Origin: a virus
Lineage: Duplodnaviria; Caudoviricetes
Direction: 5' to 3' (one strand)
IMG/VR virus record: IMGVR_UViG_3300009664_000002
Coordinates: 7,333-71,332 of that record
Length of the DNA stretch: 64,000 nucleotides
Both the position numbers and the translations under genes were made by a program. A model generated the notes under the pieces. It saw only the letters and a list, made by a program, of their open reading frames with translations. It made no database searches and was not told where the DNA came from. This document shows, one piece after another, positions 16,857 through 47,239 of the stretch. Numbering within the stretch: the stretch's first letter is position 1; each line of letters opens with the position of its first letter.

Positions 16857-16860
16857 CAAA

Positions 16861-16975
16861 ATTATAATCTAAATGAATTCGGGTGAAAAGTAGTAAGTTG
16901 GTTAAATTCCAAGTTCAATTAAAATTATGAGAAATCTAGTAAGGTGGTTCGAATCCATTATATTTGGATTATAAT
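16861..16975 (+). ncRNA. tRNA-like RNA with 15-bp terminal stem and T-arm
   Basis: 16861-16875 pairs with 16961-16975; T-arm ggtgg-ttcgaat-ccatt; central ttgg-ttaaatt-ccaa hairpin. Confidence 0.5.
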
Positions 16976-16981
16976 TTTTAA

Positions 16982-17070: not shown

Positions 17071-17442
17071 ATGAAGTATAATTTATATTTAGATGATTTT
17101 AGAAATCCAAGTGATTCTGCATATTATTTAAAAAATAATATCTATTTGAAATTGGAATGGGTTGTAGTTAGAAATTATAATGAATTTGTAAAATGTATTG
17201 AAAAAAATGGAATTCCTGAAATTATTTCATTTGACCATGATTTAGCAGATATTCATTATGATTATCAAACAGATTTATTTTCAGAAAAAACTGGTTATGA
17301 TTGTGCTAAATGGTTTATTGATTATATTATTGATAATAATTTACAATTACCAAAAAAAATATTAATCCATTCAATGAATCTAGTTGGAAGTAAAAATATT
17401 AAATCTTTATTTGATAGTTATATTAAATCATTAGAAAATTAA
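17071..17442 (+). CDS. Cyclic-phosphate-processing receiver domain protein (RNA repair associated)
   Basis: LYLDDFRNP, WVVVRNYNEF, ISFDHDL, KTGYDCAKW and IHSMN motifs. Confidence 0.78.
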   Translation: MKYNLYLDDFRNPSDSAYYLKNNIYLKLEWVVVRNYNEFVKCIEKNGIPEIISFDHDLADIHYDYQTDLFSEKTGYDCAKWFIDYIIDNNLQLPKKILIHSMNLVGSKNIKSLFDSYIKSLEN

Positions 17443-23308: not shown

Positions 23309-24409
23309 ATGGATTATTTAAAAAAAATAGATTGGAATGTTTTAAATAATTATATTAATGATGGTTTAATTACAAAAAACAAGCATCCTGAATATGACAT
23401 TTGGGTATTAAATTATTCACCAAAAACTCAAGCAAAAGGTTTGTGGGATTTATATACATTATCGTGTAGAGGACTAATTATTGATATTGATGGTAATATA
23501 TTGGCAAGACCATTTCAAAAATTTAAAAATATTGAAGAACATGATGAATCAGAATTTGATTTAACACAAGATTTTGATATTTTTGAAAAATTAGATGGTT
23601 CTTTAATCATATTATTTTATTATAAATCACAAATGAAATGGATTGTTGCATCAAGAGGTTCTTTTATTTCTGAACAGTCAATTGAAGCAAAAAAAATGTT
23701 ATATAAAGATTTAAATTTATTTAAAAAACTTAATAAAAAATGTACTTATTTGTTTGAAATCATATATAAAAAAAATCGTATTGTTGTTGATTATGGTGAT
23801 ATGTATGATTTAATATTGTTGTCAAGAATTGAAACCAATACAAATTTTGAATTGTTTTATGATGACTTAGTTGATAAATATTCTAAAATATTTACTATTG
23901 TAAATAAAATAAATATTAAAATTAATAATATATATGAATTAAAACAATTAAATGAAAAAAATAAAGAAGGGTTTGTTGTTAGATTTTTTAATGGATTTAG
24001 AGTAAAAATAAAATTTGAAGAATACGTTAGATTACATGGTATTTTAACTAATGTTTCCAATATAATAATATGGGAACATTTAAAAAATAATTATGATTTT
24101 AATAAAATCTTTGATAAAATACCAGACGAATTTTATAATTGGATTGTAAAAACAAAAAAAGAAATAATTTCTGAATATAATGAAATCGAAAGAAACGCAT
24201 TAAAAGAATTTATAAAAATATTTCATATTAATAATATTAAAGAACGTAAATCATTTGCTTTAGAATCTTTAAAAACAAACTATTCTTCAATATTATTTAA
24301 ATTGTATGATAAAAAAGAATATAATTATATTATTTGGGATATGATTAAACCAAAATATTCAAAACCGTTTAATAATAATGATAATATTAATGATTTGAAT
24401 TTATTGTAG
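23309..24409 (+). CDS. RNA ligase, T4 Rnl1 (RnlA) family
   Basis: EKLDGSL adenylation motif I, CRGLI...ARPFQKF, EGFVV, VKIK. Confidence 0.88.
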   Translation: MDYLKKIDWNVLNNYINDGLITKNKHPEYDIWVLNYSPKTQAKGLWDLYTLSCRGLIIDIDGNILARPFQKFKNIEEHDESEFDLTQDFDIFEKLDGSLIILFYYKSQMKWIVASRGSFISEQSIEAKKMLYKDLNLFKKLNKKCTYLFEIIYKKNRIVVDYGDMYDLILLSRIETNTNFELFYDDLVDKYSKIFTIVNKINIKINNIYELKQLNEKNKEGFVVRFFNGFRVKIKFEEYVRLHGILTNVSNIIIWEHLKNNYDFNKIFDKIPDEFYNWIVKTKKEIISEYNEIERNALKEFIKIFHINNIKERKSFALESLKTNYSSILFKLYDKKEYNYIIWDMIKPKYSKPFNNNDNINDLNLL

Positions 24410-25466: not shown

Positions 25467-25751
25467 ATGATTGGTAAATTATTAAATTCACAATTAATTG
25501 AAATTGAGAATCAAATTTGGGATTTTGAATCCAAAAATGGTGGAAAACCAGAATATTCAATGGAAGGTTTTAGGGCAATTATTAAAATATTTAGTTCTGG
25601 TATTCTTGATAAAATGTGGGAATTCCAAGAAAATAAAAACATGAATTTAATTGAAAAAAGAAAAATGATTCTTAATTTTTCTAATGAATTGAATGATATA
25701 ATAAAAAAATATACTGATATTGAAACAAAAAAATTGTATGAAAAATTTTAA
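25467..25751 (+). CDS. Small paralogous family protein (copy 4)
   Basis: LIEIENQIWDFE...GFRAIIKIFS. Confidence 0.7.
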   Translation: MIGKLLNSQLIEIENQIWDFESKNGGKPEYSMEGFRAIIKIFSSGILDKMWEFQENKNMNLIEKRKMILNFSNELNDIIKKYTDIETKKLYEKF

Positions 25752-25806
25752 TATTTTTGTAACAAATTTTTGTTTTATTCGTATTTATAACTACATTTGT
25801 AAAATT

Positions 25807-25884
25807 ATGATTAGAAATAACAAATATTACCACAGCATTAAATTCTATAAGAAGATTCTTATGGTAATGGGAATTCTATGTTGA
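25807..25884 (+). CDS. Attenuator leader peptide 3 (MIRNNKYYHSIKFYKKILMVMGILC)
   Basis: 7 Lys/Tyr among residues 6-16; precedes tRNA-Lys and tRNA-Tyr. Confidence 0.8.
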   Translation: MIRNNKYYHSIKFYKKILMVMGILC

Positions 25885-25911
25885 TATTTGTTAAATATTT
25901 TAAAAAATATT

Positions 25912-25947
25912 AAAACCCGATTCCCAATAAATGAATCGGGTTTTTTT
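25912..25947 (+). terminator. Attenuator terminator 3
   Basis: aaaacccgattc/gaatcgggtttt hairpin with U-tract; tgggaat (25868-74) can pair with attccca (25920-26). Confidence 0.85.
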
Positions 25948-26020
25948 GTGTTCGTAACTCAATTGGTAGAGTACCACACTTTTAATGTGGGAGTTATGGG
26001 TTCAAATCCCATCGGACACA
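25948..26020 (+). tRNA. tRNA-Lys(TTT)
   Basis: gtgttcg/cggacac, ccaca-cttttaa-tgtgg. Confidence 0.93.
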
Positions 26021-26023
26021 CTT

Positions 26024-26117
26024 GGATGTCTAACGGCAGCAGACTGTAAATCTGCCCCACTTGAAAAAATTGTCGTATTGGTGTAGTGGTAGGGGGGTTC
26101 AAATCCCTCGGCATCCA
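26024..26117 (+). tRNA. tRNA-Tyr(GTA), non-canonical (D-arm relocated)
   Basis: ggatgtc/ggcatcc, gcaga-ctgtaaa-tctgc, T-arm; 8-nt 5' linker and 37-nt post-anticodon segment. Confidence 0.75.
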
Positions 26118-26202
26118 CAAATTTTTATTTTATTTTTTTGATTTTTTATTTATTATTATTATTTTTGTCTAAAAATAACAACTATTAATAATAAAGTTAA
26201 TT

Positions 26203-26916
26203 ATGGCAAAAAAGAAAAAAACAATCAAAAAAACAATTATTAAAGAAATAATTGAAACCAACGAAAAAACTCATATTATTTCTATTTTAGATAGAAGTGG
26301 TTCAATGGCGAATATTATTTCAGATAGTATTGGTGGATTTAATACTTTTTTAAAACAACAAAAAGAATTACCTGATGATGCAACAATAACAATTGTATTA
26401 TTTGATGATGAATATGAAGTTTTATATAGTAATGTTAATATTAAAAATGTTGATTTACTTACTGATAAAATTTGGACACCACGTGGTACTACAGCATTAT
26501 ATGATGCAATTGGTAAAACTATTAATAGTGAAAAAATAAAACTTAATAAATTAAAAGATGAAGCACCAGATAAAGTTTTGGTTTGTATTGTTACTGATGG
26601 AATGGAAAATGCTAGTCGGGAATTTAGATTGGATGATATAAAAAAAATGATTAAAGATTGTGAAAATGATAATTGGAATTTTATTTATTTAGCAGCAAAT
26701 CAAGATGCATTTAGTGTAGGACGTTCATTTGGTATTAGTGGTGGAAACACATTTACATATACAGCCGACATTGATGGTGTTAAAAATGTCATGGATTTAT
26801 TGGGTCAGACTACTTCGTTATATAGAAGTATGAGTAGTACATCAACATCATTTCAAGCAGATTCGAAAAATTTGATAACTAATGATTTTGAAGAATCGGA
26901 TGAAAATGATGAATAA
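26203..26916 (+). CDS. vWA domain protein
   Basis: MIDAS ILDRSGSM, GTTALYDAIG, IVTDGMEN. Confidence 0.88.
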   Translation: MAKKKKTIKKTIIKEIIETNEKTHIISILDRSGSMANIISDSIGGFNTFLKQQKELPDDATITIVLFDDEYEVLYSNVNIKNVDLLTDKIWTPRGTTALYDAIGKTINSEKIKLNKLKDEAPDKVLVCIVTDGMENASREFRLDDIKKMIKDCENDNWNFIYLAANQDAFSVGRSFGISGGNTFTYTADIDGVKNVMDLLGQTTSLYRSMSSTSTSFQADSKNLITNDFEESDENDE

Positions 26917-26933: not shown

Positions 26934-26965
26934 AAAGTGGGCATTTATTTGCCCTTTTTTTTTTC
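26934..26965 (+). terminator. Probable terminator after the vWA gene
   Basis: gggca...tgccc hairpin followed by a long T-run. Confidence 0.55.
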
Positions 26966-37190: not shown

Positions 37191-37520
37191 ATGAAAATAT
37201 GTCCCGAACAATATACAAAATTAAATTTTATTGAACTATTAAAAAATTCCAATGTTGATGAAATAATTATAAAAAAAATGAATAAATTACCAGAAACAAT
37301 TAATGTTAATGGTAATGAATTTAATATATATATTAATGTCACAAAATATGGTATTGAAAACCCAAAATTTAATTATGAATTAAATTATTATTCAGAAGAT
37401 ATAATTGAATTTCTTTTCTATTCAAAAGTTTTTAATGATATTGAATTAAGTCTTAATAATTTGCTTTGTAATTTAGTGAATATTAAAGTATTAAATATTG
37501 AAGAATTAATTGATGAATAA
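37191..37520 (+). CDS. Hypothetical protein
   Basis: 109 aa ORF. Confidence 0.65.
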   Translation: MKICPEQYTKLNFIELLKNSNVDEIIIKKMNKLPETINVNGNEFNIYINVTKYGIENPKFNYELNYYSEDIIEFLFYSKVFNDIELSLNNLLCNLVNIKVLNIEELIDE

Positions 37521-38184
37521 AACAACAATTTGTGTAATTAGTGATACACATTCTAAGCATAATCAAATTAAATATTTACCCGATGCAGATGTTATAATTC
37601 ATTGTGGGGATATTACAACAATGGGTTATGAACATGAAATTCGTAATTTTTTTAATTGGTATTCAAATTTATATCAATATGAATATAAAATATGTATTGC
37701 AGGAAATCATGATTGGCTATTTGAATCTAATAGAATGATTGTAAAAGAATTATTACCAGATAATATTATTTATTTAGAAGATTCTGAAATTATCATTAAT
37801 GATTTAAAATTTTATGGTACACCCGTTTCGAAAATGTTTTTTAATTGGGCATTTAATCGTCATGAAAATAAATTGAAACAACATTGGTCAAATATTCCTG
37901 ATGATACTGATATTCTAATAACACACGAATTACCATTTGGAATTCTTGATTATAGTAAAAAAATTAACGAAAATATTGGTTCTAAATCATTATATAAACA
38001 AGTAAGTAAAAAAATTAAACCATTAGTACATACATTTGGACATAATCATAATGGACATGGTATTTTATTTGAAAATAATATAACATATATTAATGCATCT
38101 ATTTTAAACGATAACTATACAATTCAAAATAAACCAATACTTTTTGAAATTGAAAATAATAAAGTTAATATTCTTAAATATTAA
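37510..38184 (+). CDS. Calcineurin-like metallophosphoesterase
   Basis: VISDTH, IHCGD, IAGNHD, LITH, FGHNH motifs. Confidence 0.9.
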   Translation: MMNKTTICVISDTHSKHNQIKYLPDADVIIHCGDITTMGYEHEIRNFFNWYSNLYQYEYKICIAGNHDWLFESNRMIVKELLPDNIIYLEDSEIIINDLKFYGTPVSKMFFNWAFNRHENKLKQHWSNIPDDTDILITHELPFGILDYSKKINENIGSKSLYKQVSKKIKPLVHTFGHNHNGHGILFENNITYINASILNDNYTIQNKPILFEIENNKVNILKY

Positions 38185-46408: not shown

Positions 46409-47239
46409 ATGAAATTTGAAACAATTGCCGATTGGTGCAAATGGCTAGAAAAAAATTTCAGTAATGAAATTATGATACCAACATTACCTGTTATTATTAG
46501 ATTAGATGGTAATAATTTTCATAATTGGACTAAAGGATTAGAAAGACCTTTTGATTTAAAATTAATTGAATTAATGACTGAAACAACCAAATTTTTAGTT
46601 CAGGAAACAAATGCCGTTGTTGGTTATACACAAAGTGATGAAATTACATTAATTTTATATTCAAACGATAAAAATTCTTTAATTTATAACGATGGTAAAA
46701 AACAAAAAATAGTTTCAAAACTTACTGCAAAATGTGTTAATTTTTTTAATGAAAAAAGAAAAGAATTATTACCAAAACATAATAAAACAGCAATTTTTGA
46801 TTGTAGAATTTATCAAACAGCAACATTACATGATGCTTGTATTCAATTACTTTGGCGTGAAAATGATGCGATTAGAAACAGTATTTCAATGTTAGCACAA
46901 AGTTTATTTTCACACAAAGAGTTACAAAATTTAAATACAACTGAAATTCAAAATAAAATGATGTTAGAAAAGGGTGTAAATTGGTCTAATTTAAACAGTA
47001 AGTTAAAAAGGGGTACGTATGTTAAACGAATTAAAACATCTAAACCTTTTACTAAAGAAGAATTAAAAAACTTACCACCGTTGCATCAAGCCCATAAAAA
47101 TCCAGATTTGGTTATTGAACGTTCAGTTATTAAAGAAATTGAATATCCAATATTCAATACAATAAAAAATAAAATAGATGTTATTTTCTTTGATAAAGAA
47201 CCATTAACTGAAATTATTCATATGGATTTATGTAAATAA
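46409..47239 (+). CDS. thg1: tRNA-His guanylyltransferase (Thg1/TLP family 3'-5' polymerase)
   Basis: IIRLDGNNFH, YTQSDEITL, FDCR, WRENDAIRNS, FSHKELQN, KRG motifs. Confidence 0.92.
   Translation: MKFETIADWCKWLEKNFSNEIMIPTLPVIIRLDGNNFHNWTKGLERPFDLKLIELMTETTKFLVQETNAVVGYTQSDEITLILYSNDKNSLIYNDGKKQKIVSKLTAKCVNFFNEKRKELLPKHNKTAIFDCRIYQTATLHDACIQLLWRENDAIRNSISMLAQSLFSHKELQNLNTTEIQNKMMLEKGVNWSNLNSKLKRGTYVKRIKTSKPFTKEELKNLPPLHQAHKNPDLVIERSVIKEIEYPIFNTIKNKIDVIFFDKEPLTEIIHMDLCK

What the first reader, a model, noticed from the sequence alone, without database searches (positions are those of the whole stretch)
25758..26117. Attenuator unit 3: Lys/Tyr leader over tRNA-Lys and tRNA-Tyr
Leader residues 6-16 are KYYHSIKFYKK (7 of 11 K/Y), using both AAA/AAG and TAT/TAC. 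tgggaat near the end pairs with attccca overlapping the terminator 5' arm and loop. tRNA-Lys begins immediately after the U-tract. tRNA-Lys(UUU) is the known target of PrrC and PARIS, so this unit could act as a tRNase alarm.
Basis: partly seen in the sequence, partly recalled or inferred. Interest (0 to 1): 0.85.

Follow-up and report, generated by a model that had tools for sequence, protein, structure and literature searches.

The report
Leader-peptide attenuator gating phage tRNA-Lys/Tyr
A huge uncultured phage puts a tiny Lys/Tyr-rich test reading frame and a switchable transcription stop directly in front of its tRNA-Lys and tRNA-Tyr genes, so it probably makes these tRNAs only when ribosomes read Lys/Tyr codons slowly; I found no published description of such control for tRNA genes.

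Summary
A promoter-like block is followed by a 25-codon ORF (25807-25884) with 7 Lys/Tyr in 11 residues. An 8-nt segment near the ORF's end is complementary to the terminator's 5' arm and loop. The hairpin and U7 tract end one base before tRNA-Lys(UUU).

Alone the unit is only moderately significant. Comparison settles it:
- The same build precedes all four tRNA clusters here and in five related 130-365 kb IMG/VR phages.
- 22 further distinct Lys/Tyr leader-plus-terminator variants exist in IMG/VR.
- In the distant 635-kb phage LR745206.1 the tRNAs are grouped differently and the leaders follow the new groupings (own assignment ranks 1 of 5040 permutations).
- Antiterminator segments change together with their own terminator arms.

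Best reading: classical ribosome-mediated attenuation, wired to tRNA genes as a demand-driven supply loop.

The PrrC/PARIS "alarm" idea is possible but not specific, because all clusters share the design and Lys and Tyr are separated in LR745206.1.

The "tRNA-Tyr" is non-canonical: ARAGORN and Rfam miss it. It belongs to a conserved family whose fold is supported by covariation.

No expression data could be obtained. This scan has noted the same system on other genomes. I found no paper describing it.

The parts
25757..25799 (+). Promoter-like block: TTGTAAC...CGTATTTA (25757-25787), and TTTG (25769-25772), 19 nt, TAcaTTTG (25792-25799), matching the Bacteroidota -33/-7 consensus
   Evidence: The same block lies upstream of the other attenuator units and of the relatives' Lys/Tyr leaders. 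The transcription start was not determined.
25807..25884 (+). Leader ORF, 25 codons plus TGA
   Evidence: Homologous ORFs with the same Lys/Tyr block occur in 27 aligned relatives (A2). The frame downstream of the Lys/Tyr block is not conserved as peptide: the window and L003 are shifted by one base. Yet the ORF always runs through the antiterminator segment.
25822..25854 (+). Regulatory codon block, codons 6-16: 4 Lys (AAA x2, AAG x2) and 3 Tyr (TAT x2, TAC)
   Evidence: The last Lys codon starts 16 nt before the antiterminator segment, just beyond a ribosome footprint.
25818..25829 (+). Predicted segment 1, overlapping codons 5-8. In the full-length minimum-energy fold it pairs with 25882-25893 (stop codon region).
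   Evidence: MFE -36.7 kcal/mol, z -4.75. Relatives show an equivalent 1:2 hairpin, but its outer helix is only 74% paired across A2.
25868..25875 (+). Segment 2, the 5' strand of the antiterminator (TGGGAATT), inside codons 21-23
   Evidence: It binds its own terminator arm better than the arms of the other three units (-10.2 against -8.5, -5.5 and -7.1 kcal/mol).
25881..25913 (+). Middle hairpin enclosing or following the stop codon. It is enclosed by the antiterminator helix.
   Evidence: Relatives have a hairpin at the same place with changed but still complementary arms (seen in the sequences).
25912..25947 (+). Intrinsic terminator: 12-bp stem (5 G-C), 9-nt loop, U7. Bases 25919-25926 are also the 3' strand of the antiterminator.
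   Evidence: hairpin -14.6 kcal/mol. Terminator-like sites are enriched in the region, 13 found against 2.9 +/- 1.6 expected.
25948..26021 (+). tRNA-Lys(UUU)
   Evidence: ARAGORN; Rfam RF00005 at 72.2 bits.
26024..26117 (+). Non-canonical tRNA-Tyr-like gene (anticodon GUA). It has a 7-bp acceptor stem, no D arm at the usual place, a linker 26033-26038 that pairs with 26071-26076 behind the anticodon arm, an extra stem, and a T arm.
   Evidence: Not called. The family was found in 25 IMG/VR contigs. In alignment A3, 97.8% of cells are paired and 17 of 27 pairs show two-sided changes, against 0 of 500 shuffles.

Best explanation
Unit 3 is a ribosome-mediated (leader-peptide) transcription attenuator that gates a phage tRNA-Lys / tRNA-Tyr operon. 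Transcription starts at the promoter-like block. A ribosome translates the 25-codon leader while RNA polymerase proceeds. If Lys and Tyr codons are decoded fast, the ribosome runs on to the stop codon. There it covers TGGGAATT (25868-25875), so the terminator hairpin forms and transcription stops in the U7 tract, one base before tRNA-Lys. If charged tRNA-Lys or tRNA-Tyr is scarce, the ribosome stalls on codons 6-16. That stall also melts the segment 1 hairpin. TGGGAATT stays free and pairs with GATTCCCA (25919-25926) as soon as it is made. The terminator cannot form, and the polymerase reads into tRNA-Lys, the tRNA-Tyr-like gene and probably the vWA gene at 26203. More tRNA then restores decoding and shuts the unit again: a demand-driven negative feedback on tRNA supply. 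Shown: the anatomy, its conservation, the match of leaders to downstream tRNAs, and the complementarity with compensatory changes. Inferred: translation of the leader, termination, the kinetic switch and the physiological trigger.
For: (1) All parts are present in the right order and spacing. There is no room for a promoter between the U-tract and the tRNA. (2) The same build precedes all four tRNA clusters of this phage and of five related IMG/VR phages. In every phage the own leader-to-cluster assignment ranks first among all permutations of amino-acid match. (3) A coding pattern taken from the Lys/Tyr leader hits 49 IMG/VR stretches. In 33 of them the next tRNA is Lys or Tyr. They give 22 distinct leader-plus-terminator variants. 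(4) Independent test: in LR745206.1 (635 kb) the tRNAs are grouped differently and seven leaders follow the new groupings. The His/Phe/Trp/Lys/Ser cluster has a leader rich in those residues, Glu/Tyr has a Y/E leader, Arg/Ser an S/R leader, and three Gln tRNAs a leader with 7 Gln in 15. The own assignment ranks 1 of 5040. (5) In 20 of 21 units a segment in the last codons of the ORF is complementary to the terminator's 5' arm (z -2.4 to -6.8). Own arms bind better than arms of other units (-13.7 against -9.6 kcal/mol, Mann-Whitney p=2.7e-6). Within the Lys/Tyr family the segment changes with the arm: GAATCGGG with CCCGATTC, GATTCGGG with CCCGAAT, AAGACTGG with CCGGTCTT, and TGGGAATT with GATTCCCA here. 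The antiterminator is 95% paired across A2, against 7-63% for slid controls. (6) The peptide downstream of the Lys/Tyr block is not conserved and two reading frames are used. Yet the ORF always covers segment 2, as expected if translation rather than the peptide matters. (7) The leader folds far better than shuffles (z -4.75; relatives z -3 to -5). On the nascent transcript the antiterminator conformer is the minimum-energy fold.
Against: The window's own Lys/Tyr enrichment over the whole leader is weak (P=0.06). Its antiterminator is short: 8 bp at -10.2, against -14.6 kcal/mol for the terminator. At equilibrium the terminator wins under every simulated ribosome position, so the switch has to be kinetic, which cannot be tested here. 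The transcription start is unknown. If the TAnnTTTG box is the -7 element, the mRNA is almost leaderless. One of 21 units lacks significant complementarity. One relative (L002) has a weakened hairpin and a tRNA-Tyr but no Lys/Tyr leader. The 1:2 helix is poorly conserved (74% paired). The Bacteroidota host is inferred only, from the promoter motif, from RNR relatives and from the host prediction for the 634-kb phage in PMC7162821.
Confidence: 0.8

Rival explanations
1. Dedicated tRNase alarm. The unit exists mainly to detect cleavage of host tRNA-Lys or tRNA-Tyr by anticodon nucleases of the PrrC, PARIS or retron PtuAB type, and to switch on replacement phage tRNAs. This is a special case of the attenuator mechanism.
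For: tRNA-Lys is the target of PrrC and PARIS, and tRNA-Tyr of retron-Eco7 PtuAB. Phage tRNA-Lys and tRNA-Tyr rescue infection (PMC11464382; PMC11555353; PMC10264068). The phage encodes a T4 Rnl1-type RNA ligase 1.4 kb upstream (23309-24409), a cyclic-phosphate-processing cREC protein (17071-17442) and Thg1. The tRNA-Tyr is structurally rewired, which could in principle evade a nuclease.
Against: The identical design gates every cluster, covering about 18-20 amino acids. The Lys+Tyr grouping is not conserved in LR745206.1. The sensor cannot tell nuclease damage from codon demand, host shutoff or starvation. No host or host defence system is known.
Confidence: 0.12
2. Unregulated arrangement. 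The short ORF is an independent micro-gene, or is not translated. The hairpin is a constitutive terminator, insulator or processing and stability element, and the tRNAs are made by basal readthrough.
For: No expression data exist. The terminator is thermodynamically dominant. Some relatives carry a 140-nt repeat-rich insert between terminator and tRNAs that might hold extra promoters. Transcripts from the upstream gene (ends 25751) can also enter the unit.
Against: It does not explain why leader composition follows the downstream tRNA set even after the clusters are regrouped. It does not explain why a segment in the ORF's last codons changes together with the terminator's 5' arm. A promoter immediately followed by a constitutive terminator would be futile. 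The peptide is not conserved beyond the regulatory codons.
Confidence: 0.05
3. RNA-only switch. The leader RNA senses tRNA or a protein directly, in the manner of a T-box or a protein-mediated attenuator, without translation.
For: The terminator/antiterminator logic is the same. No Shine-Dalgarno sequence is visible.
Against: No T-box or other Rfam family matches, even at E up to 10. All regulatory triplets lie in one frame that starts with a conserved ATG and ends at a stop placed after segment 2, in all 27 aligned relatives. Insertions and deletions inside the Lys/Tyr block come in threes. Leaders that sense many amino acids are hard to reconcile with direct tRNA binding.
Confidence: 0.03

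Closest known systems
Leader-peptide attenuators of enterobacterial amino-acid operons (trpL, hisL, pheL, leuL; multivalent thrL and ilvL)
   Same: A short ORF carries clustered regulatory codons. Hairpins 1:2, 2:3 and 3:4 are mutually exclusive. An intrinsic terminator precedes the regulated genes. Ribosome position decides the outcome, and more than one amino acid can be sensed, as in thr and ilv (background: PMC1183508).
   Different: The regulated genes are the tRNAs that read the regulatory codons, not biosynthetic enzymes, so the loop closes on tRNA supply. The unit lies in a phage genome of a probable Bacteroidota host. There is no sequence relationship: Rfam Trp_leader scores 19.8 bits against a cut-off of 41, and Thr_leader 17.5 against 55.
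pheM leader attenuator of pheST (phenylalanyl-tRNA synthetase) and the His-leader of hisS paralogs in bacilli (PMC2965389)
   Same: Leader-peptide attenuation controls a component of the translation apparatus in response to the cognate charged tRNA.
   Different: Those units control synthetases. Here the output is tRNA genes. The pheM case is cited from my own knowledge and was not checked here.
T-box riboswitches
   Same: They sense tRNA status and choose between terminator and antiterminator upstream of translation-related genes.
   Different: T-boxes bind uncharged tRNA directly and have no ORF. No T-box match was found.
Phage tRNAs that neutralise tRNA-targeting defences (T5 tRNA-Lys against PARIS, T5 tRNA-Tyr against retron-Eco7, tRNA-Lys against PrrC)
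   Same: Phage-encoded tRNA-Lys and tRNA-Tyr compensate for a loss of host tRNA (PMC11464382, PMC11555353, PMC10264068).
   Different: Per the section heading of PMC11555353, T5 overexpresses its tRNA-Tyr from a strong promoter. I did not read the bodies of these papers, and my library searches found no report of demand-sensing control of phage tRNA genes.

Membership tests
Ribosome-mediated (leader-peptide) transcription attenuator | Short ORF with start and stop codons between the promoter and the terminator | tested here: met
   ORF 25807-25884. The ATG is conserved in all 27 aligned relatives.
Ribosome-mediated (leader-peptide) transcription attenuator | Regulatory codons cognate to the regulated product are concentrated in the ORF | tested here: met
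   7 Lys/Tyr in 11 codons, scan P=0.003. At family level the own assignment ranks first in 6 of 6 phages and 1 of 5040 in LR745206.1.
Ribosome-mediated (leader-peptide) transcription attenuator | Intrinsic terminator between the ORF and the regulated genes | tested here: met
   12-bp stem plus U7 at 25912-25947, with the tRNA starting at 25948. Sequence level only.
Ribosome-mediated (leader-peptide) transcription attenuator | Antiterminator pairing that uses the terminator's 5' arm and is placed where ribosome position decides | tested here: met
   The segment starts 16 nt after the last Lys codon and ends 7 nt before the stop codon.
Ribosome-mediated (leader-peptide) transcription attenuator | Anti-antiterminator (1:2) pairing that overlaps the regulatory codons | tested here: inconclusive
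   It is predicted in the minimum-energy folds, but the outer helix is only 74% paired with little covariation.
Ribosome-mediated (leader-peptide) transcription attenuator | Readthrough rises when the cognate charged tRNA is limiting and depends on translation of the leader | not testable with these tools
Rfam amino-acid operon leaders (Trp_leader RF00513, Thr_leader RF00506, trpB motif RF04312) | Covariance-model score at or above the gathering threshold | tested here: not met
   19.8 against 41, 17.5 against 55 and 21.7 against 59 bits. The matches rest on the terminator hairpin.
T-box riboswitch | Match to the T-box covariance model (Stem I specifier, T-box sequence) | tested here: not met
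   No T-box hit at E up to 10 in 25700-26250.
Canonical tRNA (RF00005 / ARAGORN) | Cloverleaf recognised by standard models | tested here: met
   tRNA-Lys 25948-26021: 72.2 bits, and called by ARAGORN.
Canonical tRNA (RF00005 / ARAGORN) | Cloverleaf recognised by standard models (the Tyr element 26024-26117) | tested here: not met
   Not called. It has its own rearranged fold, supported by covariation.
Counter-defence tRNA against anticodon nucleases | The phage tRNA resists the nuclease or replaces the cleaved host tRNA, and the host carries such a nuclease | not testable with these tools
   The host is unknown. Only circumstantial RNA-repair genes were seen.

The most novel reading that the evidence does not exclude
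The four attenuators form a phage-encoded, closed-loop tRNA homeostat. Each tRNA operon is gated by a 'test strip' ORF that measures the decoding speed of exactly the codons its tRNAs read. Unit 3 in addition serves as the trigger of a counter-defence. When a host anticodon nuclease depletes tRNA-Lys or tRNA-Tyr, stalling on the leader switches on phage replacements, among them a tRNA-Tyr whose rearranged D arm lets it escape the nuclease.
Probability: 0.15. Interest if true: 0.9.

Novelty: new variant of a known kind. Interest (0 to 1): 0.8.

Why it matters
Why phages carry tRNAs has been debated for decades: codon compensation, replacement after host shutoff, or escape from tRNA-cleaving defences (PMC10264068). 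An attenuator whose sensor codons are those read by the gated tRNAs is the phage's own statement of when these tRNAs are needed. They are needed when decoding of those codons becomes slow. That makes the question directly testable with reporter fusions. It would be the first case I know of in which leader-peptide attenuation controls tRNA genes. It would also extend this mechanism to phages of Bacteroidota and provide compact sensors for single or multiple codons. The design recurs in published huge-phage genomes such as LR745206.1, whose description does not mention it: 'attenuat' and 'leader' each occur 0 times in PMC7162821.

Tried and rejected
- Megablast of the tRNA region against GenBank phages found no match.
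- Blastn of a typical Lys/Tyr leader against GenBank phages found no match, so close relatives are only in IMG/VR.
- A DNA search with a relative's tRNA-Lys in LR745206.1 and LR756500.1 found nothing. I replaced it with an RF00005 search.
- Weak Rfam matches to Trp_leader, Thr_leader, the trpB motif and several sRNAs all rest on the terminator hairpin and lie below threshold. I rejected them.
I rejected this, because the GUA anticodon arm and the covarying fold fit better.
- Blastn-short of the Tyr element against the fetched loci found only the phage's own copy. A pattern scan then found the family.
- Equilibrium folding with simulated ribosome footprints never lets the antiterminator beat the terminator. 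It therefore gives no thermodynamic proof of switching.
- My automatic locator of segment 2 failed for about half of the A2 sequences because of trailing U-runs. I used only the rows where it found the known segment.
- My first two rules for picking the leader ORF crashed or picked promoter-overlapping ORFs.
- Literature searches for attenuation of tRNA genes found nothing relevant.

Full report
WHAT IS THERE. The window belongs to a 71-kb IMG/VR phage record that CheckV rates 24% complete. It has a T4-like portal and terminase. Its RNR is closest to uncultured huge phages and then to Bacteroides phages. Between 16.6 and 32.4 kb it holds 22 tRNAs and a tmRNA, all on the + strand.

- A promoter-like block lies at 25757-25799. 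It contains TTGTAAC...CGTATTTA, and TTTG, 19 nt, TAnnTTTG.
- An ORF runs from ATG 25807 to TGA 25884. Its codons 6-16 hold four Lys (AAA and AAG) and three Tyr (TAT and TAC).
- TGGGAATT (25868-25875) is complementary to GATTCCCA (25919-25926). That target spans the end of the terminator's 5' arm and the start of its loop.
- A 12-bp hairpin with U7 (25912-25947) follows, and tRNA-Lys(UUU) starts at 25948.

IS IT MORE THAN CHANCE? Taken alone, only moderately.
- K+Y over the whole leader gives P=0.06. A density of 7 in 11 gives a simulated P=0.003. None of 290 other sORFs of the record reaches it.
- The 8-bp complementarity has z -2.8.
- The whole leader folds much better than shuffles (z -4.75).

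The case rests on comparison.

THE SAME DEVICE ON EVERY CLUSTER. Terminator-like hairpins are enriched in the region: 13 found against 2.9 expected. One sits just upstream of the first tRNA of each of four clusters. Each is preceded by the promoter block and a 21-37-codon ORF. tRNA-Trp, the tmRNA and tRNA-Leu(UAA) have none.

I fetched the tRNA regions of five related phages (129-365 kb, two with terminal repeats). The cluster order is conserved, and each cluster has promoter, sORF and terminator. I picked leaders with a mechanical rule and scored their residues against the amino acids of each downstream cluster. The true assignment ranks first among all permutations in all six phages.

THE LYS/TYR UNIT IN RELATIVES. 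Homologues of the downstream vWA-like gene (26203-26916) led to loci with Lys/Tyr tRNA clusters. These loci carry Lys/Tyr-rich leaders and terminators.

A degenerate coding pattern from that leader hits 49 IMG/VR stretches. In 33 of them the next tRNA is Lys or Tyr. They give 22 distinct leader-plus-terminator variants (alignment A2).

The ATG is invariant. Insertions and deletions in the Lys/Tyr block come in threes. Behind the block the peptide is not conserved: the window and L003 use another frame there. The nucleotides of segment 2 are conserved, and the ORF always runs through them. This is the signature of a frame that must be translated but whose product does not matter.

ANTITERMINATOR.
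- In 20 of 21 units a segment in the last codons of the ORF is complementary to the terminator's 5' arm.
- Own arms are bound better than the arms of other units in the same phage (-13.7 against -9.6 kcal/mol, p=2.7e-6). For every Lys/Tyr leader its own arm is the best partner.
- Within the Lys/Tyr family the segment and the arm change together. There are four variants, including the window's shifted register.
- Across A2 the antiterminator is 95% paired, against 7-63% for slid controls. It varies little, so covariation inside the family is weak.
- Relatives and the window also show a 1:2-type hairpin over the Tyr/Lys codons and a middle hairpin at the stop codon. The outer 1:2 helix is only 74% paired.
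- On the nascent transcript (to 25928) the antiterminator conformer is the minimum-energy fold. On the complete leader the terminator always wins. The switch must therefore be kinetic, as in classical attenuators.

INDEPENDENT TEST. LR745206.1 is the 635-kb genome of Al-Shayeb et al. The five genomes longer than 634 kb in that study are predicted to replicate in Bacteroidetes (PMC7162821). This phage groups its tRNAs differently, yet seven units with the same build are present and the leaders follow the new groupings. Lys is sensed together with His/Phe/Trp/Ser, Tyr with Glu, Arg with Ser, and three Gln tRNAs sit behind a leader with 7 Gln in 15 residues. The true assignment ranks 1 of 5040. 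This is hard to explain except by selection for leaders that report on the tRNAs they gate.

MECHANISM. The best reading is classical ribosome-mediated attenuation (confidence 0.8).
- Fast decoding of the Lys/Tyr codons brings the ribosome over segment 2. The terminator then forms and transcription stops before tRNA-Lys.
- Stalling on codons 6-16 leaves segment 2 free. It starts 16 nt after the last Lys codon, just outside a ribosome footprint; this is inferred from the standard toeprint distance. The antiterminator then forms and the tRNAs are transcribed.

The output feeds back on the input, so the unit is a supply-on-demand loop. Translation, termination and switching are inferred, not shown.

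THE ALARM IDEA. tRNA-Lys (PrrC, PARIS) and tRNA-Tyr (retron-Eco7) are real defence targets (PMC11464382; PMC11555353). The phage carries a T4 Rnl1-type ligase, a cREC protein and Thg1. A nuclease attack would indeed trip the switch. But the device is generic to all clusters, and the Lys+Tyr pairing is not conserved. I therefore rate a dedicated alarm at about 0.12-0.15.

THE tRNA-TYR. Bases 26024-26117 are missed by ARAGORN and Rfam. Compared with canonical relatives the element lacks the D arm and has about 23 extra bases behind the anticodon arm (A1).

A pattern scan found the same architecture in 25 IMG/VR contigs. In 12 aligned sequences, 97.8% of cells are paired and 17 of 27 pairs show compensatory changes. 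The fold has an acceptor stem, an anticodon arm, a T arm and an extra stem. It also has a helix between the short linker before the anticodon arm and a segment behind it.

It is a conserved non-canonical GUA tRNA-like gene, not a pseudogene. Its function as a tRNA is untested.

NOVELTY. Searches of the paper library found no description of attenuation of tRNA genes, in phages or elsewhere. Earlier notes of this scan report the same system on this window and on several other phage genomes. They agree with what I tested here. I class it as a new variant of a known kind.

Noticed in passing
window 26024-26117; L084-L106: A conserved family of rearranged tRNA-Tyr(GUA)-like genes. There is no D arm at the usual site. 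A 6-nt linker before the anticodon arm pairs with a segment behind it, and an extra stem crosses this helix. The fold is supported by covariation.
   Followed up: yes
window 31145-31222: An element with a GAT (Ile) anticodon arm, a 7-nt linker and a 24-nt post-anticodon segment looks like the same rearranged architecture. ARAGORN does not call it.
   Followed up: no
window 16860-16980: The 120-nt gap between tRNA-Gln and the second tRNA-Pro contains a T-loop-like GGTTCGAATCC and complementary ends. It may be another undetected tRNA-like gene.
   Followed up: no
L030, L034, L041, L042, L059, L068, L072, L074 (between the Lys/Tyr terminator and the first tRNA): A ~140-nt insert carries 5-6 repeats of a motif such as ATGAAAAAC or GCATAAAAAC. 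It may hold extra promoters or protein-binding sites that bypass the attenuator.
   Followed up: no
window 23309-24409, 17071-17442, 46409-47239, 37510-38184: Genes of RNA-repair type lie among the tRNA clusters: a T4 Rnl1-type RNA ligase, a cyclic-phosphate-processing cREC domain protein, Thg1 and a calcineurin-like phosphoesterase.
   Followed up: partly
window 27091-30417: The ribonucleotide reductase large subunit is interrupted by an intein (Intein_splicing domain, residues 327-541).
   Followed up: no
window 26203-26916 and L001-L012: A vWA-like 237-aa gene lies downstream of the Lys/Tyr tRNA cluster in 9 of the 12 related loci found through it. There is no terminator between it and the tRNAs, and the next hairpin is at 26939-26954. 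It may be co-transcribed under the same attenuator.
   Followed up: partly
G001, G003, L001, L006, L009, L010: Many tRNAs of normally short type (Lys, Gln, Glu, Val) are 83-90 nt long in the relatives. G001 also has a CTA-anticodon (amber suppressor) tRNA, which hints at TAG recoding there.
   Followed up: no
L002 2380-2795: One relative has a tRNA-Tyr behind a hairpin with a C-A mismatch and no Lys/Tyr leader. It looks like a decayed unit.
   Followed up: no
L047, L057 (300 nt after the terminator): A tRNA-like sequence with a normal D arm and T arm but an enlarged anticodon region lies between the terminator and the first called tRNA-Lys.
   Followed up: no
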